A stretch of 64,000 nt of DNA from Eledone cirrhosa. Its lineage: Eukaryota. Both the position numbers and the translations under genes were made by a program. Positions 5,286-51,968 of the stretch are shown here, one piece after another (within the stretch, counting starts at the first letter, position 1; each line of letters begins with the position of its first letter). The notes under the pieces are model-generated. The model ran no database searches. It was not told the origin of the DNA and saw only the letters and a program-made list of their open reading frames with translations. Where the stretch lies: assembly GCA_964016885.1 (NCBI GenBank), contig OZ024753.1:23870001-23934000 (forward strand). The letters run 5' to 3'.

Positions 5286-5784
5286 CTGCCAACTCGTTTT
5301 CGAGTACGGCCACTACTTTATATCCATGTAGGAGAACCCTTACCGATGCGCTGAACGAGTGTGACTGTTTAGTCCAGCCAGTGACTTAAAAACTCTGGTA
5401 CAAACACTACACTTGTGACAATTTTTGACACATAGTGCTGGGCCCATGGTATCATGTGATGACAAGTGCAGAGAGATCTCCAGATATAAAGCGGTGCCTG
5501 TGCCGTGAAGCTTTTATAGTGAGCAAAGGCACTGCACAAAGCCAGTCCCACTCTCATAACCAAGATGATATTTACCAAAAAGAACAAGTCAACATCATTG
5601 GATACCATCAGAGTTGCCGGTGTTATATCAGAGTTTTCCTTCTCCTAGAATTCTGCCTTGACAAAGGCTAAGGGGTCATCTCCCCGGTGATTTTGGATGG
5701 CCATTGACTCTTAAGAGCTCCTTTGCCCTTTAACAGGTTTTGTTTTTAGTCCTGCAGGATGTCCAAAGTCACCCTCCTCACCAA

Positions 5785-10602: not shown

Positions 10603-10697
10603 TGTATATGTATATATATATATGAATATGTATATATATGTATATGTATATATATATGTATACATATATGTATGTATATATGTATGTATATATGTAT

Positions 10698-11195
10698 GTT
10701 TTCCTTCTCCTAGAATTCTGCCTTGACAAAGGCTAAGGGGTCATCTCTCCCGGTGATTTTGGATGGCCATCGGCTCTTAATGATTGTATCCAATGCCCTT
10801 TGATGGTATCCAATGTTGACACCTGCAACCCTGATAGTATCCAATGTTGACACCTGCAACCCTGATGGTATCCAATGACGTTGACTTGTTCTTCTTTTTG
10901 GTAAATATCATCTTGGTTAACAGAGTGGGACTGGCTTTGTGCAGAGCCTTTGCTCACTATAAAAGCTTCACAGCACAGGCATTGCTTTATATTTGGTCAT
11001 CTCTCTGCACTTGTCGTCACATGGTACCATGGGCCCAGCACTATGTGTCAATAATTGTCACAAGTATAGTGTTTGTACCAGAGTTTTCAAGTCGCTGGCT
11101 GGACTGAAACGTCACACTCGTTCAGCGCATCGGTAGGGTTTCTCCTACATGGATATAAGGTAGTGGCCGTACTCGAAAACGAGTTGGCAGCCACC
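10698..11195 (+). mobile_element. Bipartite RTE derivative with inverted 5' segment
   Basis: 10698-10780 has the same orientation as 5634-5713, whereas 10860-11195 is the reverse complement of 5286-5620; ~31-bp tandem repeats at the junction. Confidence 0.75.
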
Positions 11196-25148: not shown

Positions 25149-25684
25149 CTCATTGTCGAGTGCTTGATTCCGTCTCCTTCACAAACACCTAGATATTTGT
25201 AAGTTTTTTCTTGATCAAGTTCTCTTATCACGTTCCCCCCGATCAAGATTAATGTCTGAACTCTTCAGCAGCTTTCCTCTGGTGAACGTTGCTTTGGCGC
25301 ATTTATCTAGTCCAAACTCCATTTTAATGTCATCACTGAATTGCTTCACAGTGGATAATAGCCCTTGCAATTGTTCATCATTTTTTGCAAATAGTTTCAG
25401 GTCATCCATGTAGAACAGGGGATTAATGGTTTTGTCATAGACTTTATATCCATGTTTTGTTTCATTGAGCATTTTACCTAATGGTATAAGTGCGATGCAG
25501 AATAAAAGCGGTGATAAAGAGTCACCCTGAAAAATTCCACAATTAATATTAACTTTTCCAGCTTCCAGTGATTTTGTTTCACTATTCAAAAGGAGTGTCG
25601 TTTTCCATGTCATCATACTGAATGACAAAAACCTCCTGACAACGGGGGATATTTTGAAAATCTCTAAACATTTTTCAATCCAAC
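25149..25684 (-). mobile_element. R4/Dong-like family A, internal RT fragment
   Basis: [17 protein letters not shown]; near-identical to ~33757-34292. Confidence 0.9.
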
Positions 25685-25715
<31 letters not shown>

Positions 25716-25723
25716 GTTGTTAT

Positions 25724-26303
25724 TCCTTGAATCTCAGTCATTGATGTTGGTTAACTGGAAAGTCCGTTGGATTGAATATCAAGCCACTACCTGCAGCCTC
25801 AGATATTCAGGACGTATCGGAGGGTTCTTGCTGTTCCAAGCAAGCATGCCTTTTGAAGCGTTCCAAAAAGCGTGAAGGGGCCGATTTTCTTTAACCATCC
25901 CTGGAAACTTTTGGAGATAGTCCCCAGTGCGCCTATGACAATCGGGATCACTTTGACTTCATGGCAGTTCCAAATCCTTTTCACCTCCCACTTTAGGTCC
26001 TGGTATCGGTTAATTTTCTCCCTCTCCTTCTCTTGCACTCTCGTGTCGAACGGGCAGGCCACATCCACAATCAGGCACGATCTTTTTTCTTTGTCCACAA
26101 CCACCAGGTCAGGTCTATTGTGTTCCAGTTTTTTGTCCGTCTGTATCCTAAAATCCCACAGCACCTTCACCTGATTGTTCTCCATCACCGCCTCTCGCCT
26201 ATGCTCATACCATTTCTCAGAATGTGGTAGATTGTTTACTTTGCACAGGTGCCAGTGGATCACCCTGCCCATCACACCGTGTCTCCAGCCCTTATAGTGG
26301 GTC

Positions 26304-26304
<1 letters not shown>
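25724..26304 (-). mobile_element. R4/Dong-like family B, 3' fragment (RLE domain)
   Basis: [19 protein letters not shown]; matches 42161-42740; (TTA)n on both sides. Confidence 0.92.
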
Positions 26305-26377
<73 letters not shown>

Positions 26378-26393
26378 CATTATTATTACTATT

Positions 26394-27119
26394 GGCGACC
26401 TACGTAGCAAATCGTATCATCGTGAGCTCCGCAAAGGGTTGTTATTTCCGTTTGTTAAAAATTGCCATTTATGGAAAATTTTATTGTTAACTGTATATAA
26501 GCGCACATACATTGTTTTCCGAAAAGACACCCAAAAAGGTTGGGGCCTTGTGCCCAAAATTTTAACATTTATAATTATCAAAAAAAATTTCTTTGAAAAA
26601 AAACATGGAAGTCTCACAGCCACACGAAGCTGACAGCCTTCCTCATAAACTAACACCTCACACCGACACCACCATTGTAAATATTACTACGTTTGCCAAC
26701 ACAAAAAAATTAAGCAGTAGCAATATTTTAAATTTGTCTCAGGCAGACAATCATTTCCCGCCATTACCAATGACTGCAGGTGTTAAAGCCGCCACCACCA
26801 CCACCGCGACAACCACCACTCCCACCACCACCGCAACAACAGAAACAAAAGAAGAAAAAAATAAATTAACTCGTGATGTCGAAATGAATTCAACCAAAAT
26901 GGACTCTTCCACACCGAACACCACTGACGTCACCACCACCACAACTGAAACTTAAATTAATAATAACAAAAATAACGATAACAACAACAGCAACAATGAC
27001 ATTAAAAAAACCACCCTGAGTTTTGCCAGAGTAGCAAAACAGTGCGAAGCATTTCAGGTAACACAGGAGGAATTAGAAAATGCCAAAAAAATGGTAAAGA
27101 AAGATGGGTACAGGGTCAG

Positions 27120-32340: not shown

Positions 32341-32341
<1 letters not shown>

Positions 32342-35300
32342 AGTTGCATTTATCTTGCTTTATGTACATACGAGTTATCACCAAGTCACAACCAGTGACC
32401 TCAAGAGACAACAAGGTCCGCCATGTTCAAGAAAGAACATACATATTCACACATGCATCTTTAGTATTTAGACTTGTGATGTACTTATATTGACAGAATC
32501 TTCCTTAGTATATGGGCAGTTCCCATTAGTACTATCTTTTGTATTTCTCCTATACGCGGGTTTCCTGGGATTTGCGATAAGTAGTCATTAGACCCCTTAG
32601 GTATCATTCCCAGAGCGCCTACAACCACTGGTATTGTTTTAGTTCTCAATTTCCACATTTTTCCAATTTCTATCTCCAGGTCCTTATACTTGCTAAATTT
32701 TTCAAATGTTTTTATAGATACATTCTTGTCTATTGGAACAGACATATCAATTAGCAGGCATACCCTCTTTTGAAAGTCCTTCAATATTATATCAGGTCTA
32801 TTTGCATCTATTTTTCGGTCTGTTTGGATGCTAAAGTTCCACAAGATTGAGATGTGATCTTTTTCAAGTATGGGAGGTGGTTGATACTCCCACCAATTCT
32901 TTTGATGGGGCAGGTCAAAATGCTTACACATTATCCAATGTATGTATTGTGCAGCTCTGTCATGCCTGTTTAGGTATTCGGTTGGAGCTATAGGACTGCA
33001 CATTGAAATTATATGGTCAATGGCCTCTGGTTGTTTTTTGCATACACGGCATAATGGGCTGCACCCATTTTTTATTATGTTGGCTTGGTAATTTTTTGTT
33101 GGCAGACACTGATCTTGTGCCGATATAATCAGTCCTTCAGTCTCCGATTTCAGTCCAGAGGATGCCAACCACTGATGGGTTAAAGTTTTGTCAACATCAG
33201 GATTGTTAGCTCGCTCTGAGGCTTTTCTTGCCATTTCTTAGCCAGTTTCTGTAGCAGTTCTTTCTTTGCAGTTACTTTTACCTGCTTTGCTTTTTCTGTG
33301 TTTTCCATTTCAGCAGTAAATGGGACTTCTGAAATTTGTAGTCCATTACTGTATCTTTGTGCATCTTTTGTAATGGAATATGATCTTTTGATGCTTTCGT
33401 GTTTCAAAACGAGTTTGATCATCCAATCATGTGATTCCCTTAGATATGTAGATAATCTAATTGTTGCAGTTTTCAACGCAATGTCTAACTGGACTAACCC
33501 ACGTCCTCCTTCTTTCCTAGGGAGATATATTCTATCAATATCTGCCTTAGGGTGATGCATTCTGTGCATGGTTAAGAATTTTCGAATTTTTGTATCGAGC
33601 CTACGGATCTCTGTGCTTGACCAGTTGATGACATTGTAACTGTAGGTTACTACTGGTATGGCAAGCGTGTTTATGGCATCGATCCTATTCCTTGCATTCA
33701 ATTCCGTTCTTAAAATTGCTCTTACTCTGCGGTAACATTCCTTCCTTATCCTTTCCCTCATTGTCGAGTACTTGATTCCGTCTCCTTCACAAACACCTAG
33801 ATTTTTGTAAGTTTTTTCTTGATCAAGTTCTCTTATCACGTTCCCCCGATCAAGATTAATGTCTGAACTCTTCAGCAGCTTTCCTCTGGTGAACGTTGCT
33901 TTGGCGCATTTATCTAGTCCAAACTCCATTTTAATGTCATCACTGAACTGCTTCACAGTGGATAATAGCCCTTGAAATTGTTCATCATTTTTTGCAAATA
34001 GTTTCAGGTCATCCATGTAGAACAGGTGATTAATGGTTTTGTCATAGACTTTATATCCATGTTTTGTTTCATTGAGCATTTTACTTAATGGTATAAGCGC
34101 GATGCAGAATAAAAGCGGTGATAAAGAGTCACCCTGAAAAATTCCACAATTAATATTAACTTCTCCAGCTTCCAGTGATTTTGTTTCACTTTTCAAAAGG
34201 AGTGTCGTTTTCCATGTCTTCATACTGAATGACAAAAACCTCCTGACAACGGGGGATATTTTGAAAATCTCTAAACATTTTTCAATCCAACTGTGTGGTA
34301 AACTATCGAATGCTTTTTTATAATCTATCCAAGCAATCGATAGATTTTTGTGTTTATTATGACAATCTTCCAGTATCATTTTGTTAACCAGAAGCTGATC
34401 CTTACAGCCATATGAGCCTCGTTTACACCCTTTCTGCTCAATGGGAAATAGGTCATTTGTTATCAGGTGGTCATATGTGTATTCAGTTAGGACTGATGTT
34501 AAAATTTTATACATTGTGGTCAAGCAAGTTATCGGTCTGTAATTTTGGGGATTGTTTGTCTCATCATTCTTCGGAAGCAGGAATGTAATGCCGTTAACTA
34601 GCCATGATGGTATCTTTTCTGGCTCCTTAACTATTTCATTGTAAAGTTGGGCTAACAGCTTATGCGACTCTGTGAAGGCGTTTATCCAAAAGTTTTGTAT
34701 TTTGTCTTTTCCTGGGGATTTCCATTTGCTGGTTTTTCTTAGAGCCAAGCGCAACTGTTCAACTGTTATATTTTCCCATGTTTGCTCCTCAAGGTGAGCT
34801 GTATCTTTCATTTGTCTGTCTATCCATGGGGCATGTATGTTATGAACTTTTTCTTCGGCCCAGATCTTTTCCCAGAATTCTTGCACTTCCTCCTTGGGTG
34901 GTATTGATTTAGCAGTTATTGTTGACTTACCAATTTTTCTGTAGAAGTTTCTTTGGTTGTTTTTGAACATATTATTGTCCTTATAGAATCTAGATCGTTT
35001 TTCAAAGCGCTTTATATGAGCAGCTTTGGCCGACACTTTTTGCTTGATTATTTCTATCAGCATGTCTATGTCACATGTTGATTTTATACTGTACTATTTT
35101 TTCAATTTTCAAAGTTTAGTTTGTTTAACATGTTGACCTACTTTATAGTTTGTTAAAATTTCTATGTCAGATTGGAGAAGGTTTATTTGGCGATTGATGT
35201 TCTCTTGCCAAGTAGATTTCTTGTGGGAATTCCTTTGTTTTTTCATCTTCACTCCACATAAGTGAGTGGTGACTTTAGCCGATGCATAATAGAGATGATT

Positions 35301-36260
35301 TAAATCAGTAATGTTTAGTTTGTTTGTGATGATAATGTTTTTGAGAATTATGTTAGTCTTGTGTATTATCTTTTGGTTCTGTTCGGAGTTCTGGATCTTA
35401 GGGAGGGTGTCTCGTTTCCCCATGTCAGATTCTTTCATTTTCATCCATTCGATCATAATTTTATCCTTCAAGTTGGCAAGTTCATTCTCATTCATTTCTT
35501 TATCATTTACGATCTCATTATTTTCATTTGGAGTTTCATCCTGAGCATGCACTCCCTCCACTTTTTCGATCCTTTCTTTAATTTGTTCTGTTGCCAGTGA
35601 TTCCGCCCCAACCCTGGGGTTCGAAGTGTTACAGTTTACCTCGTTTTCGCTGACACATGTTGCATTTTCCCTTCGCTGACTTTGTGCTAATAGCTTGATC
35701 TGATCAATTTCTATATCAGTTAGTAACTTTTTCTTACAATATTTCTTCGTATATTGGCTAGTTTGTTAGTCAATATAGCCTCTGTTTTCGGGATGTTTCT
35801 TTTTCCAGTTGATATATGTCTGTTCTGTATTCGATGTATTTGATGGGTAGTACATGGCAGTGTAGAAAGCCTCAAGGACTTCTTTATTATCTTCCCTTGA
35901 CCATTTTTCTCTCTTTTTCTTTGGATTTCTTGGTGGTGAGCATGGAGGGCCAACAGTAGGAGTATTCCGGTTATGGGAGGTCTCCAGCTCCGAAGTGATG
36001 GGAAGGTTTGAACCATTAGCTGATTTTTCGACCCCAGTCTGGTTCCTCTTTGAGGGACGCGGCCCTTTTTTACCCGGGTGACGGCCGATCCGGTATGAGA
36101 TTTTATCATTAGACATTTACTTTATTTTGTCGCGTTTTATCCTTATCCGCCAAGGGGTATCCATTTCGTGTTACCACTTCTAGAACGAGTGTCAACCAAG
36201 ACTAGAGGGGTCGTTCTCCCCTAGAGACACGGCTATTCCCCGCCGGCTGCCATCCCGGTT
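32341..36260 (-). mobile_element. R4/Dong-like (RLE) LINE family A, near full length, frameshifted
   Basis: ORF pieces 35766-36116, 35109-35561, 33180-35063 and 32485-33234: WIDYKKAFDS, YMDD, CRVC..HIISMC, RHD, RPD..D; 3' end in (TAA)n. Confidence 0.92.
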
Positions 36261-36399
36261 TTCTTTTTGTTGTTTTTTTAAATTGTTATCATGAGTGGTT
36301 CCTTAATGTGAGCATTGCGTGGCTTAAGAATGAAATTATTAATAATTGTCTCCACTCCAGGCACAAGGCCAGCAATCACCCAGTGCATTACAATAATAT

Positions 36400-37233
36400 A
36401 ATATACTTTTTGTTGTAGTTGGCTGTTATTGTTGTTGGCTATGTCGGTGGTGGTGCCGGGGCTTTTTATATTGTTGGTGAGGAAGGGGTGAGCCAGCAGT
36501 CCCATAGTTGTTGATGTTGACGTTTGGCCGGTGGCCAGGTCACTAAGTCAATCTATTTATATCTTTTGCTAGCCTCTCGTCTAGTGATACCGCCACCTTC
36601 CCCTTTCTCTCTCAAGTTAACAGGGGAATAGTGGTGGTAGCATTGAAGGAGTGGTGGCGGCGACGATGGGATAGTGGTAGCAATGATGGATGGGGTGGGG
36701 TGGTGGTAGCGGTGGCGTTGTGGTTACTGATATGTAGTATCTATGAGTTTGTGTTCGTATGTTTAATATATATTTTTATTATATTTTGTGTTGACATATT
36801 CCCGTAAAATTGGAATTAAACATTTTTTTAAAATTTGAGACAATAATAATAGTAATTATTATTATGATGCTGGTGAAATTGCCGTTATCTGGCTGTTATA
36901 TTTAGTGTGATGGGATAGGTGGTGTATCAAGTTTCTGGTGTTGGTGAAATTGCTGTTATTTGGCTGTTCTATATAGTGTAGACAGAGGGTGTTTTTTTTC
37001 TCCCATTTATAACCATTTTCTTTTTTTGAATACAAAATATATAATACAAAATTGAATATTTGAGCGATACAACAATATAATATGGATCCGAAACTTTATG
37101 GGACCTGATTCGGTGGTTTATGCAACATTTGTACTAAGAATTGTTATTTCACAATTGATTTAAATATGTTAAAAATCAAAAACTTACGGGAGCGATTTCA
37201 TGACCTTCTACCACCTCGTACGTCTTCTTCCCT
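36400..37233 (-). mobile_element. Possible decayed LINE 5' region (UTR plus Thr/Pro-rich ORF1-like sequence)
   Basis: Starts next to (TAA)n; composition resembles the Tx1 ORF1 low-complexity tracts; no diagnostic motif. Confidence 0.3.
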
Positions 37234-37250
37234 TATTATTATTATTATTA

Positions 37251-38846
37251 CACTTGCATTTATCTTGCTTTATGTTCATACGAGTTATCACCAAGTCACA
37301 ACCAGTGACCTCAAGAGACAACAAGGTCCGCCATGTTCAAGAAAGAACATACATATTCACACATGCATCTTTAGTGTTTAGACTTGTGATGTACTTATAT
37401 TGACAGAATCTTCCTTAGTATATGGGCAGTTCCCATTAGTACTATCTTTTGTATTTCTCCTATACGCGGGTTTCCTGGGATTTGCGATAAGTAATCATTA
37501 GACCCCTTAGGTATCATTCCCAGAGCGCCTACAACCACTGGTATTGTTTTAGTTCTCAATTTCCACATTTTTCCAATTTCTATCTCCAGGTCCTTATACT
37601 TGCTAAATTTTTCAAATGTTTTTATAGATACATTCTTGTCTATTGGAACAGACATATCAATTAGCAGGCATACCCTCTTTTGAAAGTCCTTCAATATTAT
37701 ATCAGGTCTATTTGCATCTATTTTTCGGTCTGTTTGGATGCTAAAGTTCCACAAGATTGAGATGTGATCTTTTTCAAGTATGGGAGGTGGTTGATGCTCC
37801 CACCAATTCTTTTGATGGGGCAGGTCAAAATGCTTACACATTATCCAATGTATGTATTGTGCAGCTCTGTCATGCCTGTTTAGGTATTCGGTTGGAGCTA
37901 TAGGACTGCACATTGAAATTATATGGTCAATGGTCTCTGGTTGTTTTTTGCATACACGGCATAATGGGCTGCACCCATTTTTTATTATGTTGGCTTGGTA
38001 ATTTTTTGTTGGCAGACACTGATATTGTGCCGATATGATCAGTCCTTCAGTCTCCGATTTCAGTCCAGAGGATGCCAACCACTGATGGGTTCAAGTTTTG
38101 TCAACATCAGGATTGTTAGCTCGCTCTGTGTATTTTCCATACAGAGGCTTTTCTTGCCATTTCTTAGCCAGTTTCTGTAGCAGTTCTTTCTTTGCAGTTA
38201 CTTTTACCTGCTTTGCTTTTTCTGTGTTTTCCATTTCAGCAGTAAATGGGACTTCTGAAATTTGTAGTCCATTACTGTATCTTTGTGCATCTTTTGTAAT
38301 GGAATATGATCTTTTGATGCTTTCGTGTTTCAAAACGAGTTTGATCATCCAATCATGTGATTCCCTTAGATATGTAGATAATCCAATTGTTGCAGTTTTC
38401 AACGCAATGTCTAACTGGATTAACCCACGTCCTCCTTCTTTCCTAGGGAGATATATTCTATCTATATCTGCTTTAGTGTGATGCATTCTGTGCATGGTTA
38501 AGAATTTTCGAATTTTTGTATCGAGCCTACGGATCTCTGTGCTTGACCAGTTGATGACATTGTAACTGTAGGTTACTACTGGTATGGCAAGCGTGTTTAT
38601 GGCATCGATCCTATTCCTTGAATTCAATTCCGTTTTTAAGATTGCTCTCACTCTGCGATAACATTCCTTCCTTATCCTTTCCCTCATTGTCGAGTGCTTG
38701 ATTCCGTCTCGTTCACAAACACCTAGATATTTGTAAGTTTTTTCTTGATCAAGTTCTCTTATCACGTTCCCCCGATCAGGATTAATGTCTGAACTCTTCA
38801 GCAGCTTTCCTCTGGTGAACGTTGCTTTGGCGCATTTATCTAGTCC
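37251..38846 (-). mobile_element. R4/Dong-like family A, 5'-truncated
   Basis: Near-identical to 32341-33920; (TTA)n on both sides. Confidence 0.93.
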
Positions 38847-38890
<44 letters not shown>

Positions 38891-38901
38891 GTTGTTGTTA
38901 T

Positions 38902-41900
38902 TCCTTGAATCTCAGTCATTGATGTTGGTTAACTGGAAAGTCCGTTGGATTGAATATCAAGCCACTACCTGCAGCCTCAGATATTCAGGACGTATCGGAG
39001 GGTTCTTGCTGTTCCAAGCAAGCATGCCTTTTGAAGCGTTCCAAAAAGCGTGAAGGGGCCGATTTTCTTTAACCATCCCTGGAAACTTTTGGAGATAGTC
39101 CCCAGTGCGCCTATGACAATCGGGATCACTTTGACTTCACGGCAGTTCCAAATCCTTTTCACCTCCCACTTTAGGTCCTGGTATCGGTTAATTTTCTCCC
39201 TCTCCTTCTCTTGCACTCTCGTGTCGAACGGGCAGGCCACATCCACAATCAGACACGATCTTTTTTCTTTGTCCACAACCACCAGGTCAGGTCTATTGTG
39301 TTCCAGTTTTTTGTCCGTCTGTATCCTAAAATCCCACAGCACCTTCACCTGATTGTTCTCCATCACCGCCTCTGGCCTATGCTCATACCATTTCTCAGAA
39401 TGTGGTAAATTGTTTACTTTGCACAGGTGCCATTGGATCACCCTGCCCATCACATCGTGTCTCCAGCCCTTATAGTGGGTCTGGGATAGGTTTTTACACT
39501 CGGACACAATGTGAGCCACAGTCTCCTCTCTCTCTCCACAGATCCTGCACAGTGGGCTAGCCTCCTCCTTGTAAATATGGTGCTTCAACCACTTCGTTTT
39601 GAGGGCCTGCTCCTGCGCAGCCATTAGCATTCCTTCTGTAGCCTTTTTGAGGTCTCCTCTTCTCAACCAGTTCCATGTCTGTGGATCTCTAAATTCAGTT
39701 TTCTCAAAGAAGGTACTATGAAGGGATTTTCCCTTAAGGCTGCTCTTCCTCCTTGATGTTATTTCCTCCTTGGACATCCCCTGGCCTACTGTCCCCTCCT
39801 TCAGTACAGTTCTGAGCATTGGCTCCTTACTATAGGTCACGTATTTGTATAGGTTGTTTTTCTCCATCTGAACACAGTCCTCTATGCTGATAAGACCACT
39901 TCCACCCTCAGATCTCCTTAGGTAGAGTCTATCGACATCACTCCTCTTGTGAAACATGTTGTAGATAGTCAATAGCTTCCTAGTCTTCCTATCCATTTCT
40001 TTTTGTTCAGCAACATTCCATCTCAGAATTCCCGCACTGTACCTAATAATAGACACAGCTCGGGAATTTACTGCGCTTATGGCATTTCTGCTGTTCAGAT
40101 GTGACTTCAATACGCTCCTTACTCTCCGAATGTATTCAGTTCTTAACAATTCCTTCATTTTTTTGTTCTTTATGCCATCAGCTTCCAGAACGCCCAAATA
40201 CTTGTATTCTTCCTCAGAGTCAATTTCCTTTATCATCTCACCTGTTGGTATCTGGATCCCGTTACTTCTGCTCAACCTACCCCTCCTCATCACAATGACT
40301 CCACATTTACTAATACCAAACTGCATACATATATCACTGCTGAAAATACGGACAGTGTCAACAAGCACATCCAACTCCTTCTCACTTTTCCCGAAGAGCT
40401 TAAGATCGTCCATGAAGAGGAGGTGATTGATGGTAAGCTCTCCCTTTCCCAACTTGTATCCTGCTCTCACTTTTCGCAGCATAATGGTCAAGGGCATCAG
40501 GGCAAGGACAAACAACAGAGGGGACAGGCTATCTCCCTGGAAGATACCTCTCTTGATCTTCACGCTTCCCAAGGATACTCCAGTTGATGTCAACTCTGTC
40601 TCCCAGGACCCCATACTCCTGCCCAGCAACTGTCTGATGTTATCTGCCACCCCGAAGATCTCCAGGCTTTTGGTGATCCAAGAATGAGGCACCATGTCAA
40701 ATGCCTTTCTGTAGTCTATCCATCCCATGGCAAGATCAGTGTGTCTCCTCCTGCAATTCCCCATTACCATCTTATCAATAAGTAACTGGTCCTTTGTACC
40801 ACGTGACTTCTTTCGGCATCCTTTCTGTTCGTCCGGTAACAAGTTGTTTGTGTGGAGGTGATGGTAGATTTCCTCAGACACAATGCTCGTCAACAGTTTC
40901 CACATTACGGACAGACATGTGATAGGTCTATAGTTGGTAACATTTACCCATATAGTTTAACATTACCCTTGATTCGGTCTTTCATTATCAGAACTGTGGT
41001 ACCTTTTGTCAACCACTCTGGCACCTCACCCGACACCAAGCAGTCATTGAACATGGCCGTCAGCTTCGAGTGGAGGGATGTTCAATTTTTAATCCAATAC
41101 CCCTGCACACCATCTGGGCCTGGTGATTTCCAGTTGGTTAGTTTTTTGGCCTGCCCCTTAAGAGTTTCAACTGTGATACTCAAATCAGTTTGTTGCTGTG
41201 CCTGCTCACCGATCTCCCTCTGTACTGTCTCAATCCACCCTGCCTGGACATTATGTCTAACATCCTGCTCCCATATTCCTCTCCAGAACGTTTTAGTTTG
41301 CTCCGCCCCAGGGATCAAGTCGTTGCCTCTTTCTTTCCCCTCAAGCTGTCCAAACAGCATCTTCTGGTTGTTGTCGAACATGCGGTTCTGTTTATACTGA
41401 CTGACTCTGTTCTCGTATCGCCTGATTTTTGCACTCTTTGCTACAATGCGTTGCTTCAGTTCCTCTATGATAATATTTAGCTTTTTCCTCCTAGTTTTGT
41501 ACTTTATTTCCAGTCTATTTTTAGTGCCTATGTTTTTTAGTGTCCAATTCAGTAGTGACTCAAGCTTTCCTATGTCATTTCTCATTTCCCCGATTTGACC
41601 ACTCAGTCGTTTCTTCCACCACGGCTCTGCTCTTTCTTGTCTGTTGTGTCCTCTCGCTTTTATACCAAGTAGTTTCCTCACCGTATTTGCTGTTGCTTTG
41701 AGGATATTGTTGCACTGGTGAAGGCTCCTCGCCTCAAGGTATGGGATGACTTTGTTTACCTTAGCTGTTGTTTCTTTTAACTTTTTCCTGTCTACAAATC
41801 TTAGGTTCATAGGTCTCCCACTATCATTGTTCAATTCATCTACCACTAAATTTAGGATGTCAACCGAATCTTGTCCTAGCCCGTCAGCATTCATCTCCTC

Positions 41901-42122
41901 AGTGGCCGTATCTATGTTCCAGGTATTATTTATCTCAGTATTCAGATCATTGTCTGCTTCGGGTGGTTCCTCCGTTCTCAGGACCTCTTCACCTTCATTT
42001 CCCACTGGCTCGCTTGTCTGGCATACTACACCCGCCATCTCCAAGCCATTCTCTCTGCTCAGTTCCTCCAGTTCCAGCTCGCTTATCCACCCATTAGTTC
42101 TCATTACCCGAGCCTGCCCGGC
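38902..42122 (-). mobile_element. R4/Dong-like family B, 5'-truncated, frameshifted
   Basis: ORFs 38977-40905 and 41082-42104 near-identical to the intact copy; (TTA)n flanks. Confidence 0.93.
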
Positions 42123-42160
42123 ATTATTATTATTATTATTATTATTATTGTTATTGTTAT

Positions 42161-45100
42161 TCCTTGAATCTCAGTCATTGATGTTGGTTAACTGGAAAGT
42201 CCGTTGGATTGAATATCAAGCCACTACCTGCAGCCTCAGATATTCAGGACGTATCGGAGGGTTCTTGCCGTTCCAAGCAAGCATGCCTTTTGAAGCGTTC
42301 CAAAAAGCGTGAAGGGGCCGATTTTCTTTAACCATCCCTGGAAACCTTTGGAGATAGTCCCCAGTGCGCCTATGACAATCGGGATCACTTTGACTTCATG
42401 GCAGTTCCAAATCCTTTTGACCTCCCACTTTAGGTCCTGGTATCGGTTAATTTTCTCCCTCTCCTTCTCTTGCACTCTCGTGTCGAACGGGCAGGCCACA
42501 TCCACAATCAGGAACGATCTTTTTTCTTTGTCCACAACCACCAGGTCAGGTCTATTGTGTTCCAGTTTTTTGTCCGTCTGTATCCTAAAATCCCACAGCA
42601 CCTTCACCTGACTGTTCTCCATCACCGCCTCTGGCCTATGCTCATACCATTTCTCAGAATGTGGTAGATTGTTTACTTTGCACAGGTGCCAGTGGATCAC
42701 CCTGCCCATCACATCGTGTCTCCAGCCCTTATAGTGGGTCTGGGCTAGGTGTTTACACTCGGACACAATGTGAGCCACAGTCTCCTCTCTCTCTCCACAG
42801 ATCCTGCACAGTGGGCTAGCCTCCTCCTTGTAGATATGGTGCTTCAACCACTTCGTTTTGAGGGCCTGCTCCTGCGCAGCCATTAGCATTCCTTCTGTAG
42901 CCTTTTTGAGGTCTCCTCTTCTCAACCAGTTCCATGTCTGTGGATCTCTAAATTCAGTTTTCTCAAAGAAGGTACTATGAAGGGATTTTCCCTTAAGGCT
43001 GCTCTTCCTCCTTGATGTTATTTCCTCCTTGGATATCCCCTGGCCTACTGTCCCCTCCTTCAGTACAGCTCTGAGCATTGGCTCCTTACTATAGGTCACG
43101 TATTTGTATAGGTTGTTTTTCTCCATCTGAACACAGTCCTCTATGCTGATAAGACCTCTTCCACCCTCAGATCTCCTTAGGTAGAGTCTATCGACATCAC
43201 TCCTCTTGTGGAACATGTTGTAGATAGTCAATAGCTTCCTAGTCTTCCTATCCATTTCTTTTTGTTCAGCAACATTCCATCTCAGAATTCCCGCACTGTA
43301 CCTAATAATAGACACAGCTCGGGAATTTACTGCGCTTATGGCATTTCTGCTGTTCAGATGTGACTTCAATACGCTCCTTACTCTCCGAATGTATTCAGTT
43401 CTTAACAATTCCTTCATTTTTTTGTTCTTTATGCCATCAGCCTCCAGAACGCCCAAATACTTGTATCCTTCCTCAGAGTCAATTTCCTTTATCATCTCAC
43501 CTGTTGGTATCTGGATCCCGTTACTTCTGCTCAACCTACCCCTCCTCATCACAATGACTCCACATTTACCAATACCAAACTGCATACATATATCACTGCT
43601 GAAAATACGGACAGTGTCAACAAGCACATCCAACTCCTTCTCACTTTTCCCGAAGAGCTTAAGATCGTCCATGAAGAGGAGGTGATTGATGGTAAGCTCT
43701 CCCCTTCCCAACTTGTATCCTGCTCTCACTTTTCGCAGCATAATGGTCAAGGGCATCAGGGCAAGGACAAACAACAGAGGGGACAGGCTATCTCCCTGGA
43801 AGATACCTCTCTTGATCTTCACGCTTCCCAAGGATACTCCAGTTGATGTCAACTCTGTCTCCCAGGACCCCATACTCCTGCCCAGCAACTGTCTGATGTT
43901 ATCTGCCACCCTGAAGATCTCCAGGCTTTTGGTGATCCAGGAATGAGGCACCATGTCAAATGCCTTTCTGTAGTCTATCCATCCCATGGCAAGATCAGTG
44001 TGTCTCCTCCTGCAATTCCCCATTACCATCTTATCAATAAGCAACTGGTCCTTTGTACCACGTGACTTCTTTCGGCATCCTTTCTGTTCGTCCGGCAACA
44101 AGTTGTTTGTGTGGAGGTGATGGTAGATTTCCTCAGACACAATGCTCGTCAACAGTTTCCACATTACGGGCAGACATGTGATAGGTCTATAGTTGGTAAC
44201 ATCATTACCCTTGATTCGGTCTTTCATTATCAGAACTGTGGTACCTTTTGTCAACCACTCTGGCACCTCACCCGACACCAAGCAGTCATTGAACATGGCC
44301 GTCAGCTTCGGGTGGAGGGATGTTAAATGTTTAATCCAATACCCCTGCACACCATCTGGGCCTGGTGATTTCCAGTTGGTTAGTTTTTTGGCTTGCCCCT
44401 TAAGAGTTTCGACTGTGATACTCAAATCAGTCTGTTGCTGTGCCTGCTCACCGATCTCCCTCTGTACTGTCTCAATCCACCCTGCCTGGGCATTGTGTCT
44501 AACATCCTGCTCCCATATTCCTCTCCAGAATGTTTTAGCTTGTTCCGCCCCAGGGATCAAGTCGTTGCCTCTTTCTTTCCCCTCAAGCTGTCCAAACAGC
44601 ATCTTCTGGTTGTTGTCGAAAATGCGGTTCTGTTTATACTGACTGACTCTGTTCTCGTATCGCCTGATTTTGGCACTCTTTGCTACAATGCGTTGCTTCA
44701 ATTCCTCTATGATAATATTTAGCTTTTTACTCCTAGTTTTGTATTTTATTTCCAGTCTATTTTTAGTGCCTATGTTTTTTAGTGTCCCATTCAGTAGGGA
44801 CTCAAGCTTTCCTATGTCATTTCTCATTTCCCCGATTTGCCCACTCAGTCGCTTCTTCCACCACGGCTCTGCTCTTTCTTGTCTGTTGTTTCCTCTCGCT
44901 TTTATACCAAGTAGTTTCCTCACCGTATTTGCTGTTGCTTTGAGGATATTGTTGCACTGGTGAAGACTCCTCGCCTCAAGGTATGGGATGACTTTGTTTA
45001 CCTTAGCTGTTGTTTCTTTTAACTTTTTCCTGTCTACAAATCTTAGGTTCATAGGTCTCCCACTATCATTGTTCAACTCATCTACCACTAAATTTAGGAT

Positions 45101-45870
45101 GTCAACCGAATCTTGTCCTAGCCCGTCAGCATTCATCTCCTCAGTGGCCGTATCTCTGTTCCAGGTATTATTTATCTCAGTATTCAGATCATTGTCTGCT
45201 TCGGGTGGTTCCTCCGTTCTCAGGACCTCCTCACCTTCATTTCCCGCCGGCTCGCTTGTCTGGCATACTACACCCGCCATATCCAAGCCATTCTCTCTGC
45301 TCAGTTCCTCCAGTTCCAGCTCGCTTATCCACCCATTAGTTCTTATTACCCGAGCCTGCCCGGCCAATTTTTGTTCATCTAATTTAAATAAACCAATCTC
45401 GTTCCAGATGTTATGCATCCGTCTCCTGTAGCCCCCCTCCTTGGGGTTACTTTTCAGGTAGCATTGCATAACAGTTCTATTCAATTCTTTCGTCCAGTTG
45501 GTTCTGGCCCCTTTCCTTCTTCTTCTTCCTCCAACATCAACAGTATTTGGTTGACAGTCAGGTTCCTGCTGCTGAGCCAGGGGGCACCTGTTGGGTGAGA
45601 GTCTGTCACATGACGTTCTAGTCTCCATTTCACCGTTATTCGAACTGTTTATGTTCGATATTTAAACACTCTTATCGAGGATTGGCGAATGTATGTTTAC
45701 ATAGCCATCTGTGGATCCGCCATCCCACTTGGCCCTTGTGTGGCATTATCACCACGCTGTATACGGACACACATAAACAAACAAACACACGGGCAGAAAG
45801 GGCCCCAAAAATGAATAAGCATAAGTTTCATTGTAATGTAGTATTCGAATGTCTGACTTAGTTTTTGTTT
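42161..45870 (-). mobile_element. R4/Dong-like family B, full length
   Basis: ~240-bp 5' UTR, intact ORF, ~75-bp 3' UTR, (TTA)n flanks. Confidence 0.95.
42236..45628 (-). CDS. Intact RT + CCHC + restriction-like endonuclease polyprotein (1130 aa)
   Basis: [69 protein letters not shown]. Confidence 0.95.
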   Translation of the reverse strand: METRTSCDRLSPNRCPLAQQQEPDCQPNTVDVGGRRRRKGARTNWTKELNRTVMQCYLKSNPKEGGYRRRMHNIWNEIGLFKLDEQKLAGQARVIRTNGWISELELEELSRENGLDMAGVVCQTSEPAGNEGEEVLRTEEPPEADNDLNTEINNTWNRDTATEEMNADGLGQDSVDILNLVVDELNNDSGRPMNLRFVDRKKLKETTAKVNKVIPYLEARSLHQCNNILKATANTVRKLLGIKARGNNRQERAEPWWKKRLSGQIGEMRNDIGKLESLLNGTLKNIGTKNRLEIKYKTRSKKLNIIIEELKQRIVAKSAKIRRYENRVSQYKQNRIFDNNQKMLFGQLEGKERGNDLIPGAEQAKTFWRGIWEQDVRHNAQAGWIETVQREIGEQAQQQTDLSITVETLKGQAKKLTNWKSPGPDGVQGYWIKHLTSLHPKLTAMFNDCLVSGEVPEWLTKGTTVLIMKDRIKGNDVTNYRPITCLPVMWKLLTSIVSEEIYHHLHTNNLLPDEQKGCRKKSRGTKDQLLIDKMVMGNCRRRHTDLAMGWIDYRKAFDMVPHSWITKSLEIFRVADNIRQLLGRSMGSWETELTSTGVSLGSVKIKRGIFQGDSLSPLLFVLALMPLTIMLRKVRAGYKLGRGELTINHLLFMDDLKLFGKSEKELDVLVDTVRIFSSDICMQFGIGKCGVIVMRRGRLSRSNGIQIPTGEMIKEIDSEEGYKYLGVLEADGIKNKKMKELLRTEYIRRVRSVLKSHLNSRNAISAVNSRAVSIIRYSAGILRWNVAEQKEMDRKTRKLLTIYNMFHKRSDVDRLYLRRSEGGRGLISIEDCVQMEKNNLYKYVTYSKEPMLRAVLKEGTVGQGISKEEITSRRKSSLKGKSLHSTFFEKTEFRDPQTWNWLRRGDLKKATEGMLMAAQEQALKTKWLKHHIYKEEASPLCRICGEREETVAHIVSECKHLAQTHYKGWRHDVMGRVIHWHLCKVNNLPHSEKWYEHRPEAVMENSQVKVLWDFRIQTDKKLEHNRPDLVVVDKEKRSFLIVDVACPFDTRVQEKEREKINRYQDLKWEVKRIWNCHEVKVIPIVIGALGTISKGFQGWLKKIGPFTLFGTLQKACLLGTARTLRYVLNI

Positions 45871-46106: not shown

Positions 46107-48199
46107 ATGGCTACGAAAAAGAAATTTCATACGTCACTCCCACTCATTCCGTCTTCTTCTTCCTCAATCATCACTACAGCAGAGAGAAGATTGTCTCTCT
46201 CCCTCCCTTCTTTAAATGTGTCTCTCTCCCTCCCTTCTCTTTCGCAAGTGACGAAAGAAAAGAAAAGTCTCGTGCAAAGCGTGCAAGGTTTCTCCACGAC
46301 GACGACAGCGACGAAACAGGTGTGCGGGAAATACGAAAACCCAGTTCATTCGTCTGACGTCAGGAATAATAGCAGTAGCAGCCGTAATAACAACAGCAAC
46401 AGTGACAATGAAAACAACAGTAGCAGCCGCAACAGCATCACCAGCAGCATAAACAACAACAGCATTAGCAGCAGCAACACCAACAACAACCACAGCAACA
46501 GCGGCGGAGGCAGTAGTCGTAGTACCTGCAGCAACAACAAAAGTACCAGCAGCTCTGACGACAACAACAACAGCAGAGAAAAACCAATCTCATTTGCAGG
46601 TATTGCGAAAAATTTGGAAACAATCCTCATAACAAATGAGGAATTAGAGGAAGCGAAGAAGATGGTGACAAAGAACGGACACCGAGCAATCTGCAAGGCA
46701 GCGAAAATTTTTTCGAAACCCAAGAGCACTGTACGGTCACGTACCGTACAGTAAGTACAAAATCCCGTAGGGTGGAAAGAGCCACAGAGGCCCAAATACA
46801 AAAAGCCTTGGGGTCTGTGTGGCAGCGGAAAACGCACATCACCCGAGGCAAAAAATATGCCACCGTAGACGTACTCTTTGCCACACCCCAGGAGGCAAAG
46901 GCCCAATCAGTAGTGACCCTAAGGAGCGAGGAAATGGTGTTGGTGCCCTCCTACTGCGGGCAAAAAATTGTGAGGGTCAAACTGACCCACGTCCCCCCCG
47001 GAATGACCCCTTCTTGGCTGGCCGCGTCTGTCCTCGTCGGAATCGAGGACAAAACAACTGTACTGCAAGTACAGAAAAAAGTAAGAGAAGATTGGGTCGG
47101 CTCCTCCATTGAGATGCTAATCCAAACCAACCAGGAGTGCATCGAAGCTATCCCGGATGTGATAGACTTCGATAACGGCACTCAACTGCCCATAAGTGTT
47201 GAGGGCAAACGCCCGAAATGCTTTCGCTGTGGATCGAAGACTCACCTCAGGGCCTTCTGCAACGAGAAGACCCTGAGAAAGGAGAAAACCCCCCTCCTTC
47301 CGAATCCGGCTCCACGGCTACCAGCAACAGGACAAGCGGCAACCAGGAACGATAGGCCCGTGGCACCCATACCCACTCCACGGAAATCAAAAACAGCAGC
47401 AGCAGTGGAAATACTAACAACAACAACAGCAATACCAAATGCAGCTGCAACAGAGACTCCAGTGCAAACATCACCAACAACAACAAGTGAAAGAGTGGAG
47501 TTGGTACCCCTCCCCGACCTCACAGAATCAGACATGGAGTGTGAGGTGGGAGAGAGATGGCAAAAGGTCGTAAGAAGGCACAAACGCAGAAGCAGCGCAT
47601 CGTCGCCTTTGAAAAGTGAGGAAAGAAATGAGAAAAGGGTAAAGTCTACTGCAAAGAGACCCACAGCAGCAACAACACCAACACCATCACCACCCACACT
47701 AGCGCCACCATCACCACCGGCGACAACCCCACCGCCAACAACACCTTCAACACCACCACCACAAGCACCAACATCGCAAACACAACAACAAAACACACAC
47801 ACCCAGCAACAACGACAAGAAAATAGCAGAACCACACCCCACCCCCAGAAAAACAAATGCACGGCAATAAATACACACAACAAGAAACTAATGACTTACA
47901 TAATTGAACACACAGACATTTCACAACAGGACTACATAATACCAGCACCAATCAAAACGCCAACTAACATAAGACTGCTAAAAATAGCACAGAAACAATA
48001 CACAAATATTAAAACGAAATTCCCCAACGCAGTTGGTGATTTCAGGGACCTAGGAGGAACCATCAATCGAAGAGTATACTCAGACATTCTCTTAGAAGAG
48101 CCGACGACCAGCCGAAGGGACGATTCAACGGTCCCTTCACCAGACGATCAAGTGAAAAGGGATGTAAAAACCATCCCTCCTCTACCAAAAGTACGGTAA
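46107..48199 (+). pseudogene. Tx1 ORF1 (Asn/Ser-rich N-terminus, zinc knuckle, Pro/Thr-rich), one frameshift
   Basis: CFRCGSKTHLRAFC knuckle; ORFs 46107-46754 and 46772-48199. Confidence 0.85.
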
Positions 48200-48234
48200 G
48201 TGGTCTTTCCCATCTTTTCCACTCTATTTTAAAC

Positions 48235-51200
48235 ATGACCTCACTCAGAATAGGCAGCATAAATGCGCGTGGCTTGGGGTCGTCATGGAAGCAGGGTCAC
48301 CTGCTCAACGACCTCAGGTCACTAAACATAGATGTAGTGGCCATCAGCGAGACCAGAATCTCCGAAGCACGGGCCTTCGCACCGATCTTCGGCGGCTACG
48401 ATGTGTACGCATCTCCCAGCCGTCCTGGATCGGGTGGAGGAGTTGCTGTGCTTTTTCGGAGAGGTTTGGATCTCGCCATACGGGCCATCTTCCTGGACCC
48501 AGAGGGTAAGCTGGTGGCGCTGGACGTGACCAGCGGAGACGGGCAAGCTTTCAGGCTAGTGGCCGTCTATGCCCCGACAGGAGCAGGGCGGCCTGATTTC
48601 TTCCGGCGTCTGGAGACCTTTCTTGGAACGTCCCGCTCTTTAGTGTTAGTGGGCGACTGGAACGGGATCTTAGATGCACGCTGGGACTGTGTGGGATTAG
48701 CGGATAGGGGTGGAGGGTGCAAGAGCCTCACCAACCTGCTCAGGCGTTTTGAACTGTCTGACAGGTACCGATTGGATTTCCCGAAGTGCCAATGTGGACT
48801 TGGACAAACCGCATAGGGTCATCAGGATCATATCTAGATAGAGTATTTTGTAGGGAAATAGATAGGTCTAGCATAGGCTGTCCACAATTCAAGATAGTCA
48901 GCTACACGGACCACAAATTCGTGACCTGTGTGCTTGACTTAGATAGGCTTCATAGACGAGGACCCGGCTACTGGAAGCTAAACGCGTCCTTACCAGCGCG
49001 CAAGGCCTACAGAGACCGGATTAGCGAACTAGTTAAGCGGGCGTTGACGGGGGCCATCGTCAACAACAAGTGGTGGTTTGCTCTGAAAAGAGCGATTAGA
49101 ATAGAATCGATTAGGTTTAGTAAGGCTTTAGCAATAGAGAAAAATAGAGCAGAGGGAGAACTAGTTAGAAAATTAGACGAGGCGCTTAGCAAAGGCATTG
49201 CGACCGACGTGCTTGCGGCGAAATTGGCCCTTGACCAATTCTTCAATGCAAAGCACGAAGGCTGCGTTGTCAGAGCTAGGGTGCGTGCTCTCAGACACGA
49301 GGGGACGAAAGCCGTTCAATGGGCCCGAGTGGCGGAGGCGCGTCGTGGCAACAAAGCCACGATCCGGTCTTTGGTGGACCACGACGGGCGCATGCTACTC
49401 GATCCCGGGCAAATGTGTGAAGCTTTTCAGCGACACTTCGCTCAGCTGTTCGGGGGCAGCGGGGGGCCGGGTAGAGGGATGGACTTTAGTGTCTACCTCG
49501 ACGGACTGCCGCGGCTCTCGGCCACTGAGGCGAAGTGTTGCGAAAAGCCGATAACAGCCGCTGAAGTACGGGAGGCAATGACTGGCTGCACAAGGGGTAA
49601 ATCGCCTGGTTTGGATGGTCTGCCCTATGAACTTTACGTACAGATGCCAGACTTGTTCGGAGGCCTCTTGGCGGACGTCTACTGCAACTGGCAACAGAAC
49701 GGGAGAATTCCCAGTTCTGTGAGCCGAGGAGCGGTGGCACTGCTGAGAAAGGATCCGAACAAGGGGGATAACATAGACAATTTCCGGCCCATAACTCTGC
49801 TAAACACAGAGTTTAAGATTTTGGCCAAGGTGCTAGCAAAGAGGTTGGCGCTTGTCGTTGGTGGTCTGGTGGGAGAGGCGCAGACATGCGCCATTCCCGA
49901 CAGATCCATCCACGACAACCTCCACCTCATGCGATACATCGTAGAGAGGGTAGCTAGGGAACCTGGCACGGGTGGGTCCTTGATCAATTTAGATCAGTCG
50001 AAAGCTTTCGATAGGGTCGACCATCGTTACCTAGCGGCAGTCCTGAGGGCGGCTGGCTTTGGGCCCGTCTTCAGAGGCTGGATCGCTGCCATGCACAGCG
50101 ACATCTGCTCTGTGGTGAGAGTGAACGGTCACCTGTCGGAACCGTTCAACATCATGCGCTCGGTCCGCCAAGGATGTCCCCTCTCGTCCCTCTTGTACGT
50201 ATTGACTCTCGAGCCATTACTGCACAAACTGGAGACGTTGAGGGGAGTCCCGCGCGAACTAGGATGCGGAAGATCCGTGTCAGCATATGCGGACGATGTC
50301 ACCGTAGTGGTGTCGAACGCCAAACACATCGATCGATCGGCACTACACTAAGAGAATACGAAGCGGTGACAGGAGCAATGATCAACCAGGAAAAGTCAGT
50401 GGGCCTGCAGCTCGGCACCTGGAGAGGCAGGTCCATGCCGTCCAACAGCGTCGTCGGGCGCTGGACGGACGGACCGGTTAAATTGCTAGGGGTCTGGTTC
50501 GGTCCGGACCTCCAGACGGACAAAAACTGGGACGAGGTGACGAGCAGGGTGGCTTCTCTCACCCAGAAATGGGCGGAGAGGAAGCTATCCCTGAAAGTTC
50601 GAGCGGAGGTGGCTAACGCGTACATCGCGTCTGTCATCTGCTACCGCCTAACCGTCGTACCTTGTCCTAAGCCTCGCCTGACTGCGCTGGAGCGTTTGCT
50701 CTTTCGCTTTTTGTGGAAGGGACGTGCTCCGATGGTCAGGCGGTCCATCTGTTGTCAACACCCGCTACGTGGAGGGCTGGGCATGCCGTGGCTGATGATG
50801 CGCAGGCACGCGCTCAGGCTACGACATCTCCACCTCTTCCTCGACGGTGATCAGGTGTGGTCGCCGTTTGCTAGACGCGTTTTTCCCCAGCTCGTTTCCT
50901 TGACGGAGCTGCAGTCCTGGGTCAAGCGAAGACCGAGAGGGAGCGCCTGGAGACTGGAATGTCTTCAGGCGCTCACAGCCCTCGACCAATCGGGCAATGT
51001 GATCGGTGGAAACTCCACCTCGGCGTTCTATAGAGGATTAGTGGAGGGGAAGAGCGACGACGTACTTGGGGAAACTCTAGGCGTCGACGAAAATCAACTA
51101 GCCAATCTCTTCGGAAGAACTTTCGGGCCGGGGCCTATGGACAACTTCCAGAAATCTCTGGCCTGGCAGTGCTACCGAGGAGCCTTGCCAGTTCGGGATA

Positions 51201-51652: not shown

Positions 51653-51912
51653 ACTAAAGGTGGAAAACTGGGAGAGGGCACTTGCCTTGGTGGTCAGGGT
51701 CATTGTGGCTTTTTACTGGGCTTTCTCCACAAATGTCCCTCCGAAGTCTCCCCCCTATTGGGGAATTTTTCATTGTTATTTTCATTGTTATTTTTGTTAC
51801 ATCCTCTGTTTTTGTTTTTTTACACGCAGAAATGCCCATTTGTACCGTCCTGCATTGTCCTGCACTGTCCTTAATGTCTACTTTATGTAAACCCTTGTGG
51901 TTAATAAAGAAA

Positions 51913-51968
<56 letters not shown>

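What the first reader, a model, noticed from the sequence alone, without database searches (positions are those of the whole stretch)
36165..36225. Pseudoknot 5'-UTR motif shared between an R4/Dong element and RTE derivatives
Seen (minus strand): AGGGG-AGAACGA-CCCCT-CTA-GTC(TTGGTT)GAC-AC-TCGTTCT-AGAAGTGGTAACAC. The 7-nt loop AGAACGA is perfectly complementary to the downstream TCGTTCT. It aligns with GGGG-AGATGA-CCCC-TTA-GCCTT(TGTC)AAGGC-AGAATTCT-AGGAGAAGGAAAACTC at 5628-5685 and 10698-10751, where both hairpins are kept with different sequence and the pseudoknot pairing is only partial. From memory (unverified), related RTE/SINE sequences have AGACTGG/CCAGTCT at these positions, which would be covariation. 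Inference: a conserved structured RNA used by distant LINE clades (APE and RLE types), perhaps a ribozyme, translation-initiation element or RT-binding element. It does not match the HDV, twister or pistol consensus as I read it.
Basis: partly seen in the sequence, partly recalled or inferred. Interest (0 to 1): 0.75.

Follow-up and report, generated by a model that had tools for sequence, protein, structure and literature searches.

The report
Shared retrotransposon leader pseudoknot
A known 60-base stretch in the leaders of two distant kinds of animal retrotransposon and in their non-coding parasites changes its bases in matched pairs, so it is predicted to fold into a small RNA knot, which likely docks these RNAs on the host's translation machinery.

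Summary
The motif is real (minus strand, 36221-36168), 105 nt upstream of the start codon of a decayed R4/Dong-type LINE with at least 836 exact genomic matches to its first 26 nt. The pseudoknot holds up. A metagenome pattern that left five loop/partner pairs free gave 111 of 120 loci with at least 4 of 5 pairs; the four strongest of 1891 column pairs in a 34-sequence alignment are pseudoknot pairs; and within this R4 family 106 copies carry an A-U to G-C double change against 22 single changes. [quoted passage not shown] I found no structure for it in Rfam or in my paper searches. It is not HDV-like, hammerhead or pistol. Function is untested. Best guess (0.35): a portable host-facing module that recruits translation machinery. 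Rivals: binding of the element's own protein, or a 5'-3' exonuclease block (two non-autonomous families start 0-3 nt before its first pair; this R4 does not). Against necessity: a family with a broken knot has over 21,000 copies here.

The parts
36207..36221 (-). P1 hairpin: GGGG (36221-36218) / CCCC (36210-36207) closing the 7-nt loop
   Evidence: sequence; 94% of cells paired in alignment A1, changes on both sides in 3 of 4 pairs, but most of these bases were fixed by the search pattern and no P1 pair is significant in the tree-aware test
36211..36217 (-). 5' strand of the pseudoknot helix (loop AGAACGA)
   Evidence: position 36215 changes together with 36184 inside the family
36191..36202 (-). 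P2 hairpin GTC-TTGGTT-GAC inserted between P1 and the pseudoknot 3' strand, flanked by conserved unpaired A at 36203 and 36190
   Evidence: middle pair C-G in 23 and U-A in 7 of 34 sequences (both letters were allowed by the pattern); expected false hits about 1-1.5 at its score
36182..36188 (-). 3' strand of the pseudoknot helix (TCGTTCT)
36168..36181 (-). A-G junction and P3 hairpin (GTG-GTAA-CAC here; GAG-AAGGAAAA-CTC in most RTE copies)
   Evidence: sequence; 77% of cells paired in A1 with the RTE register; register differs in R4 copies, read by eye
36230..36245 (-). possible upstream hairpin CGGC-GGGGAATA-GCCG, in the place of a hairpin seen upstream in some RTE/Ceph-SINE copies
   Evidence: sequence, loci L122, L161, L215; homology not tested
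36117..36164 (-). 15-codon upstream ORF, in frame, whose TAA stop abuts the main ATG
32341..37232 (-). host element: single-ORF R4/Dong-type LINE, (TAA)n on both sides, 1.1-kb 5' UTR with 12 ATGs upstream of the motif, ATG at 36116, RT 33180-35093, CCHC finger and restriction-like endonuclease motifs 32485-33237; this copy is broken by stops and frameshifts
   Evidence: endonuclease motifs read by eye, no Pfam or PDB hit for that part
5625..5685 (-). homologous motif with broken pseudoknot in a short non-autonomous RTE-derived repeat (family D)
   Evidence: 21,815 exact matches to a 27-mer of the family
10690..10751 (-). second family D copy, cut inside P3 by a microsatellite

Best explanation
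The stretch covaries as a hairpin whose 7-base loop pairs with a downstream strand across a second hairpin, followed by a third hairpin, so it is predicted to fold as a three-stem pseudoknot, and it likely acts as a portable cap substitute that binds the host's translation machinery. Shown: the sequence, its covariation, its place in the 5' UTR of R4-type and RTE-type LINEs, in short non-autonomous derivatives and in Ceph-SINEs, often in tandem. Inferred: in single-ORF LINEs it would recruit ribosomes past upstream AUGs on uncapped or read-through RNA; in SINEs the same binding would place the RNA at ribosomes, where it could capture newly made reverse transcriptase; its compact fold would also stall 5'-3' trimming, which would explain families that begin at its first base pair. 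The fold I rate about 0.95; the confidence below is for the mechanism.
For: Fold: searches (111 of 120; held-out set, 89% of 214 cells paired, 36 double changes vs 13.5 shuffled; 106 double vs 14 and 8 single), and 27 of 28 named consensus sequences with 7 of 7 pairs in one supplement part read by eye. Host-facing rather than protein-specific: it sits upstream of R4-type ORFs (window, L058, L088; also L083, L185 by context) and upstream of APE-type RTE ORFs (L079, L096, L102, L132, L189). The R4 element here has 12 ATGs upstream of the motif in a 1.1-kb leader, and the ORF ATG lies at +106, +106 and +113 from the first G in three distinct R4 families. RTE, R4 and Ingi are among the six clades listed as carrying 5' self-cleaving ribozymes (PMC5786205), for which an IRES-like role is discussed (PMC6765202). 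Ceph-SINE consensuses differ from each other by compensated pseudoknot pairs, so selection seems to act in RNAs that code for nothing. 33 of 111 paired loci have a second copy within 200 nt.
Against: No experiment and no RNA data. Distance to the ATG is not fixed: +232 and +236 in two other R4-like loci and +140 to +622 in RTEs, with ATGs in between. No start codon directly after the knot. Family D has a broken pseudoknot and 21,815 exact 27-mer matches, so the knot is not needed for mobilisation in trans. The second R4 family of the window (42236-45661) shows no copy. The ribosome-hijack step rests on analogy with Alu/SRP, recalled and not tested. The SINE families may each have taken the piece from a LINE separately, which would weaken the argument from their compensations.
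Confidence: 0.35

Rival explanations
1. It is a binding site for the element's own ORF protein, like the 5' RNA of R2, and would promote RNP assembly or second-strand steps; SINEs keep it to be recognised.
For: R2 5' RNA with a pseudoknot binds the RT domain and activates second-strand cleavage (bioRxiv 10.1101/2023.04.07.536001, passages). RTE-mobilised SINEs repeatedly keep a 5'-UTR piece (PMC5786205; PMC4844689). Selection in the autonomous R4 family. 5' junctions at the first pair could mark where RT strips the protein.
Against: Same motif serves RLE- and APE-type proteins; broken in a family with over 21,000 copies; Ceph-SINE tails are labelled 'unknown 3'' in the supplement yet keep the knot.
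Confidence: 0.25
2. [quoted passage not shown]
For: Family A: 62 of 64 loci share at most 1 nt with the longer parent upstream of the first G, over 62 distinct flanks, 39 of which do not abut (GT)3 directly. Family B: 5 of 5 loci start 1-3 nt before it, one with a 12-nt target-site duplication. Tandem copies. Viral xrRNAs need pseudoknots (PMC10321173); an HDV fold is proposed as cap substitute in R2 (PMC11331408).
Against: In this R4 family 787 of 836 matches keep the 7 upstream bases, all 13 discordant copies examined are point substitutions, and 0 of 30 anchored copies start there. A headless SINE gains nothing. The search needed the whole motif, and a single truncated founder plus annealing to the (GT)n target could give family A's junctions.
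Confidence: 0.2
3. It is a self-cleaving ribozyme of an undescribed class that cuts just 5' of P1.
For: Sharp 5' ends in families A and B; conserved unpaired adenosines and a G-U pair (partly fixed by the pattern); these clades use ribozymes at their 5' ends.
Against: Offsets differ (0 in A, 1-3 nt in B); upstream sequence is kept in the R4 family, in tRNA-headed SINEs and in tandem arrays; no known catalytic core.
Confidence: 0.08
4. The conservation is at the DNA level (promoter or transcription-factor site, as Kojima speculated) and the pairing is incidental.
For: The purine-rich P3 loop is conserved in sequence in RTE copies and survives in family D; PMC5786205 suggests binding of a transcriptional regulator.
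Against: Five free positions change in matched pairs while their sequence varies, which a double-stranded DNA site does not predict.
Confidence: 0.05

Closest known systems
[quoted passage not shown]
   Same: Same sequence block: the supplement's alignments of OegopSINE, SepiaSINE, Sepioth-SINEs, AviRTE, many RTEs and Ingi-3_AC show it; the text also names R4-1_ADi and two copies in AviRTE.
   Different: The paper proposes no fold (0 hits for pseudoknot, stem, hairpin in the main text). R4-1_ADi appears only in figures that I could not see. New here: the pseudoknot, more R4 carriers, the within-family compensation, the 5'-junction pattern.
R2 5' RNA (protein-binding region with pseudoknot)
   Same: Pseudoknotted RNA near the 5' end of a single-ORF non-LTR element.
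   Different: About 300 nt and lineage-specific (size recalled); this motif is about 60 nt, crosses clades and lies in the UTR. No sequence comparison was run.
HDV-like ribozymes of R2, R4/Dong, RTE and Ingi/L1Tc
   Same: Same clades, 5' region, a 7-bp helix, proposed cap-substitute roles.
   Different: One pseudoknot, not a nested double one; no L3 or catalytic-C pattern; usually internal to the UTR.
Viral xrRNAs and three-stem frameshift pseudoknots
   Same: Small pseudoknot; tandem copies and a hairpin inserted in the second loop are shared traits (recalled for the viral cases).
   Different: No Rfam match; non-coding location; resistance untested.

Membership tests
RTE 5'-UTR conserved domain / Ceph-domain 3' half | sequence similarity to the block in RTE 5' UTRs and Ceph-SINEs | tested here: met
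   profile built without this R4 family hits it at E 0.0023 (window) and 8e-5 (L002); Ceph-SINE-type loci match the model at E below 1e-13; layout agrees with the supplement read by eye
RTE 5'-UTR conserved domain / Ceph-domain 3' half | located inside the 5' UTR, not at the 5' end | tested here: met
   1011 nt from the 5' junction and 105 nt before the ATG here; exceptions are families A and B
R4/Dong clade (host element) | single ORF with RT and C-terminal CCHC plus restriction-like endonuclease | tested here: met
   RVT_1 E 3e-28; CCHC and PD..D motifs read in the 32485-33237 frame; no Pfam or PDB hit for that part
R4/Dong clade (host element) | insertion in (TAA)n | tested here: met
   TAA runs at both ends in the window and before the 5' end in the 10 of 27 loci where the anchor was found; Dong-TAA link in PMC3774820
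R4/Dong clade (host element) | RT phylogeny groups with R4 and Dong | not tested
   no named reference proteins were fetched; the clade label rests on domain order, target and recall
HDV-like ribozyme | nested double pseudoknot with P3/L3 directly before the P1 3' strand and catalytic C in J4/2 | tested here: not met
   descriptor finds 0 matches in 36001-37300 (my own descriptor, not validated on a positive control); covariation shows one pseudoknot; no Rfam hit
HDV-like ribozyme | self-cleavage 5' of P1 | not testable with these tools
   needs an assay
Hammerhead / twister / pistol ribozymes | conserved cores (CUGANGA; GCG after the pistol pseudoknot; Rfam models) | tested here: not met
   CTGANGA 0 of 34, GCG after the knot 0 of 34 (cores recalled); no Rfam match at E up to 10 over the locus other than six weak unrelated hits, none at gathering score in 6 homologous loci
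Exoribonuclease-resistant RNA | pseudoknot | tested here: met
Exoribonuclease-resistant RNA | 5' ends accumulate at the foot of the fold | tested here: inconclusive
   yes in families A and B, no in the R4 family and family D; DNA junctions only
Exoribonuclease-resistant RNA | ring-like fold that stalls Xrn1 | not testable with these tools
   needs Xrn1 assay or structure
IGR-type IRES (tRNA-mimic pseudoknot) | coding frame starts directly after the pseudoknot | tested here: not met
   ORF starts lie at +106 to +622 from the first G

The most novel reading that the evidence does not exclude
A 60-nt pseudoknot module that LINEs of both endonuclease classes and SINEs swap among themselves as a cap substitute: a minimal metazoan ribosome-docking and exonuclease-blocking RNA of cellular, non-viral origin, giving a conserved SINE body a molecular function.
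Probability: 0.3. Interest if true: 0.85.

Novelty: new variant of a known kind. Interest (0 to 1): 0.6.

Why it matters
Why SINE middle bodies are conserved across phyla, and why RTE-mobilised SINEs keep a piece of the LINE 5' UTR, are open questions (PMC5786205). This gives one such body a concrete fold with ready-made break-and-rescue mutations, so translation, protein binding, exonuclease resistance and self-cleavage can each be tested directly on 60 nt. It also shows a cis-RNA module shared between RLE and APE LINEs. RTE UTRs are being engineered for gene insertion (PMC13708176), though I did not check whether those particular elements carry this motif.

Tried and rejected
Rfam: whole window at E up to 5 gave 213 matches, the 150 shown all microRNA-family hits far below gathering and none at the motif; locus scan six weak unrelated hits; six homologous loci none. 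Nested folding: no excess stability, and the 63-nt minimum-energy fold is an alternative nested structure. HDV register with the 7-bp helix as P1: rejected, no P3/L3 or P2. Second pseudoknot between the P2 loop and bases after P3: looked possible in a few consensuses, not among the top pairs and absent in AviRTE. Prokaryotic or viral distribution: viral scan 1 hit with 2 of 5 free pairs; prokaryote scan 20 hits, 7 with 0-2 of 5 pairs (background) and 13 that look like animal SINE/RTE sequence inside assembled bins (contamination is my inference). Expression: no RNA holder listed. 5'-end pile-up in the R4 family and family D: none. tRNA heads in 7 loci: ARAGORN found none, uninformative for decayed heads. 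PDB search with the endonuclease part: none. Earlier scan findings: none by words or sequence. Paper searches for a published fold (listings only unless cited): none found; the library lacks most subscription papers, Ruminski 2011, Akasaki 2010 and Gogolevsky 2008 were not read, patents are not covered, and figure 2 and supplementary figure S4 of PMC5786205 are images I could not see.

Full report
Observation. The minus strand carries the quoted sequence from 36221: a 4-bp hairpin with loop AGAACGA, a 3-bp hairpin, and TCGTTCT, which pairs with all seven loop bases. A descriptor scan of the window found 8 matches, 7 of low complexity and this one. The two relatives at 5625-5685 and 10690-10751 are also on the minus strand. 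A third hairpin follows the pseudoknot strand. Nested folding energy is not unusual, and Rfam has no family for it.

Host element. The motif lies in a LINE running from 37232 to 32341, with (TAA)n on both sides, an ATG at 36116, an RT domain and CCHC and restriction-like endonuclease motifs at the C-terminus (read by eye). This fits R4/Dong; no tree was built. The copy is broken. The leader is 1.1 kb with 12 ATGs upstream of the motif. The first 26 nt of the motif have 836 exact matches in the 3.0-Gb genome, and 20 of 20 fetched best hits carry it. The other two window copies belong to a short non-autonomous RTE-derived repeat, family D, with 21,815 exact matches to a 27-mer.

Covariation between families. 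95 loci pair at 5 of 5 positions, 16 at 4, and 9 at 0-2, the last mostly GC-rich background. Many loci are copies of one family, so distinct types matter: 16 different loop/partner combinations pair fully, and over all 38 distinct combinations 152 pairs form against a shuffled mean of 118 and a maximum of 134 in 10,000 shuffles. Alignment A1 has 34 rows: of 35 non-redundant profile hits I dropped one background locus and five further family D copies, swapped L002 for the window copy, and added five pattern hits that I knew to pair, a small bias. In A1 the five free pairs are 94.7% paired with 48 double changes against 11.7 shuffled, and slid registers give 18-50%. With no structure given, the four highest of 1891 column pairs are pseudoknot pairs; expected false hits under two tree-based nulls of my own are below 0.01 for the first, 0.05-0.13 for the next two and 0.3-0.6 for the fourth. 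P1, P2 and P3 are 94, 93 and 77% paired but do not reach significance, and P1 and P2 are partly fixed by the pattern. A held-out set of 37 matches to a model that lacks the pseudoknot pairs (32 loci searched, most of them found with patterns that fix the last two pseudoknot bases on one or both sides) is 89% paired, 36 double changes against 13.5. In one of 15 parts of the supplement of PMC5786205, read by eye, 27 of 28 named consensus sequences with both strands visible pair at 7 of 7 and one at 6 of 7; 11 of the 28 are AviRTE subfamilies.

Covariation within the family. Laying public contigs on the locus showed only two variants above 5% within the first 60 nt, at 36215 and 36184, the two sides of one pair. 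In the genome, 106 copies carry the G-C double form, 14 the G-U form and 8 the A-C form. Among 30 copies picked by a downstream anchor, 24 have A-U, 5 have G-C, none has one change alone, and one is cut short. The two subfamilies differ at four majority positions in 381 columns, two of them this pair. This is one evolutionary event, not 106.

Distribution. The motif stands upstream of R4-type ORFs in other organisms (L088, 38% identity, E 3e-91; L058, 40%) and upstream of APE-type RTE ORFs (L079, L096, L102, L132); L083 has three copies after an (AAT)n run and L185/L186 are a second R4-like family in this genome with a decayed copy. This genome also holds RTE families with an intact knot and an old RTE family with tandem arrays. 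33 of 111 paired loci have a second copy within 200 nt. The window's other R4 family shows none. No real viral or prokaryotic carriers were found with this pattern.

Clues to function. Two short non-autonomous RTE families begin at the motif. In family A, 62 of 64 loci share at most one base with the longer parent upstream of the first G; two carry an inverted copy ending at that G. In family B, 5 of 5 begin 1-3 nt before it, one bounded by a target-site duplication. The search required the whole motif, and founder effects or annealing to the (GT)n target could contribute. The R4 family here does not behave so: 787 of 836 keep the upstream bases, the 13 discordant copies examined are substitutions, and 0 of 30 start at the motif. 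Family D spread with a broken knot and shows no pile-up either (0 of 30). The ORF start lies at +106, +106 and +113 in three R4 families, +232 and +236 in two more, and +140 to +622 in RTEs.

Mechanism. A function must pay in an autonomous R4 with a long upstream leader, in RTEs, and in non-coding SINEs, and must work for two very different proteins. Binding to a conserved host partner fits best, and the translation machinery is the likeliest one: these clades are among those with ribozyme-made, uncapped 5' ends (PMC5786205; PMC6765202), and a SINE bound to ribosomes could capture nascent RT as Alu is thought to (recalled). I give this 0.35, binding of the ORF protein 0.25, exonuclease block 0.2, new ribozyme 0.08, DNA-level site 0.05. 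None is tested; the first three are not exclusive.

Comparison with what is known. PMC5786205 (main text parts 1-4 of 5 read; supplement part 13 and search passages) reports this block as a conserved domain of RTE 5' UTRs and RTE-derived SINEs, also in Ingi-3_AC and R4-1_ADi, and speculates on a transcriptional regulator; it proposes no fold. So the cross-clade sharing is known and the pseudoknot appears not to be, within the limits of searches. For PMC13708176, PMC3383444, PMC6765202, PMC3774820, PMC11331408, PMC4844689, PMC10321173 and bioRxiv 10.1101/2023.04.07.536001 I saw passages only. The motif fails the HDV, hammerhead, pistol and IGR-IRES tests.

Verdict. A real, widely conserved RNA pseudoknot in a known sequence domain: a new variant of structured 5' elements of non-LTR retrotransposons, function open, directly testable. 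Interest 0.6.

Noticed in passing
window 36164-36114 (-): 15-codon uORF in frame with the main ORF, TAA directly followed by ATG; L058 has an overlapping TAATG at its start. Possible stop-restart translation.
   Followed up: partly
window 36260-36256 (-): The window copy lacks about 18-22 nt that most family copies have just upstream of the possible P0 hairpin.
   Followed up: no
L184, L195, L198, L213 (G000): Old RTE family with three or more tandem, diverged copies of the motif spaced about 70 nt apart; 132 pattern matches against 1 control.
   Followed up: partly
L106, L154, L061: Family A insertions with an inverted copy or a restart of the first 12-18 nt at the 5' junction, ending at or next to the motif's first G.
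   Followed up: partly
L110, L155, L086: Non-coding, SINE-like loci carrying the knot with a different P3 (GAT/ATC in one, GGT/ACC in the other, same purine loop); family not identified.
   Followed up: partly
L215, L216, L218, L222, L224-L226, L229, L230, L233: Ceph-SINE-type repeats inside contigs labelled as bacterial bins; likely animal host sequence in those assemblies.
   Followed up: no
L027, L039 (G000): An older relative of family D with a different loop and partner that keeps about five pseudoknot pairs.
   Followed up: no
window 687-4240, 6427-9328, 12626-16601, 25215-26416, 37395-45661, 46640-52897: The window is a nest of decayed non-LTR elements: L1/Tx1-like, RTE-like, Penelope-like and two R4-like families, several stacked in (TAA)n runs (labels by eye and recall).
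   Followed up: no
G000:C2:353612553-353642048: Seven copies of the G-C subfamily spaced about 4.9 kb apart, one element length: a head-to-tail array.
   Followed up: no
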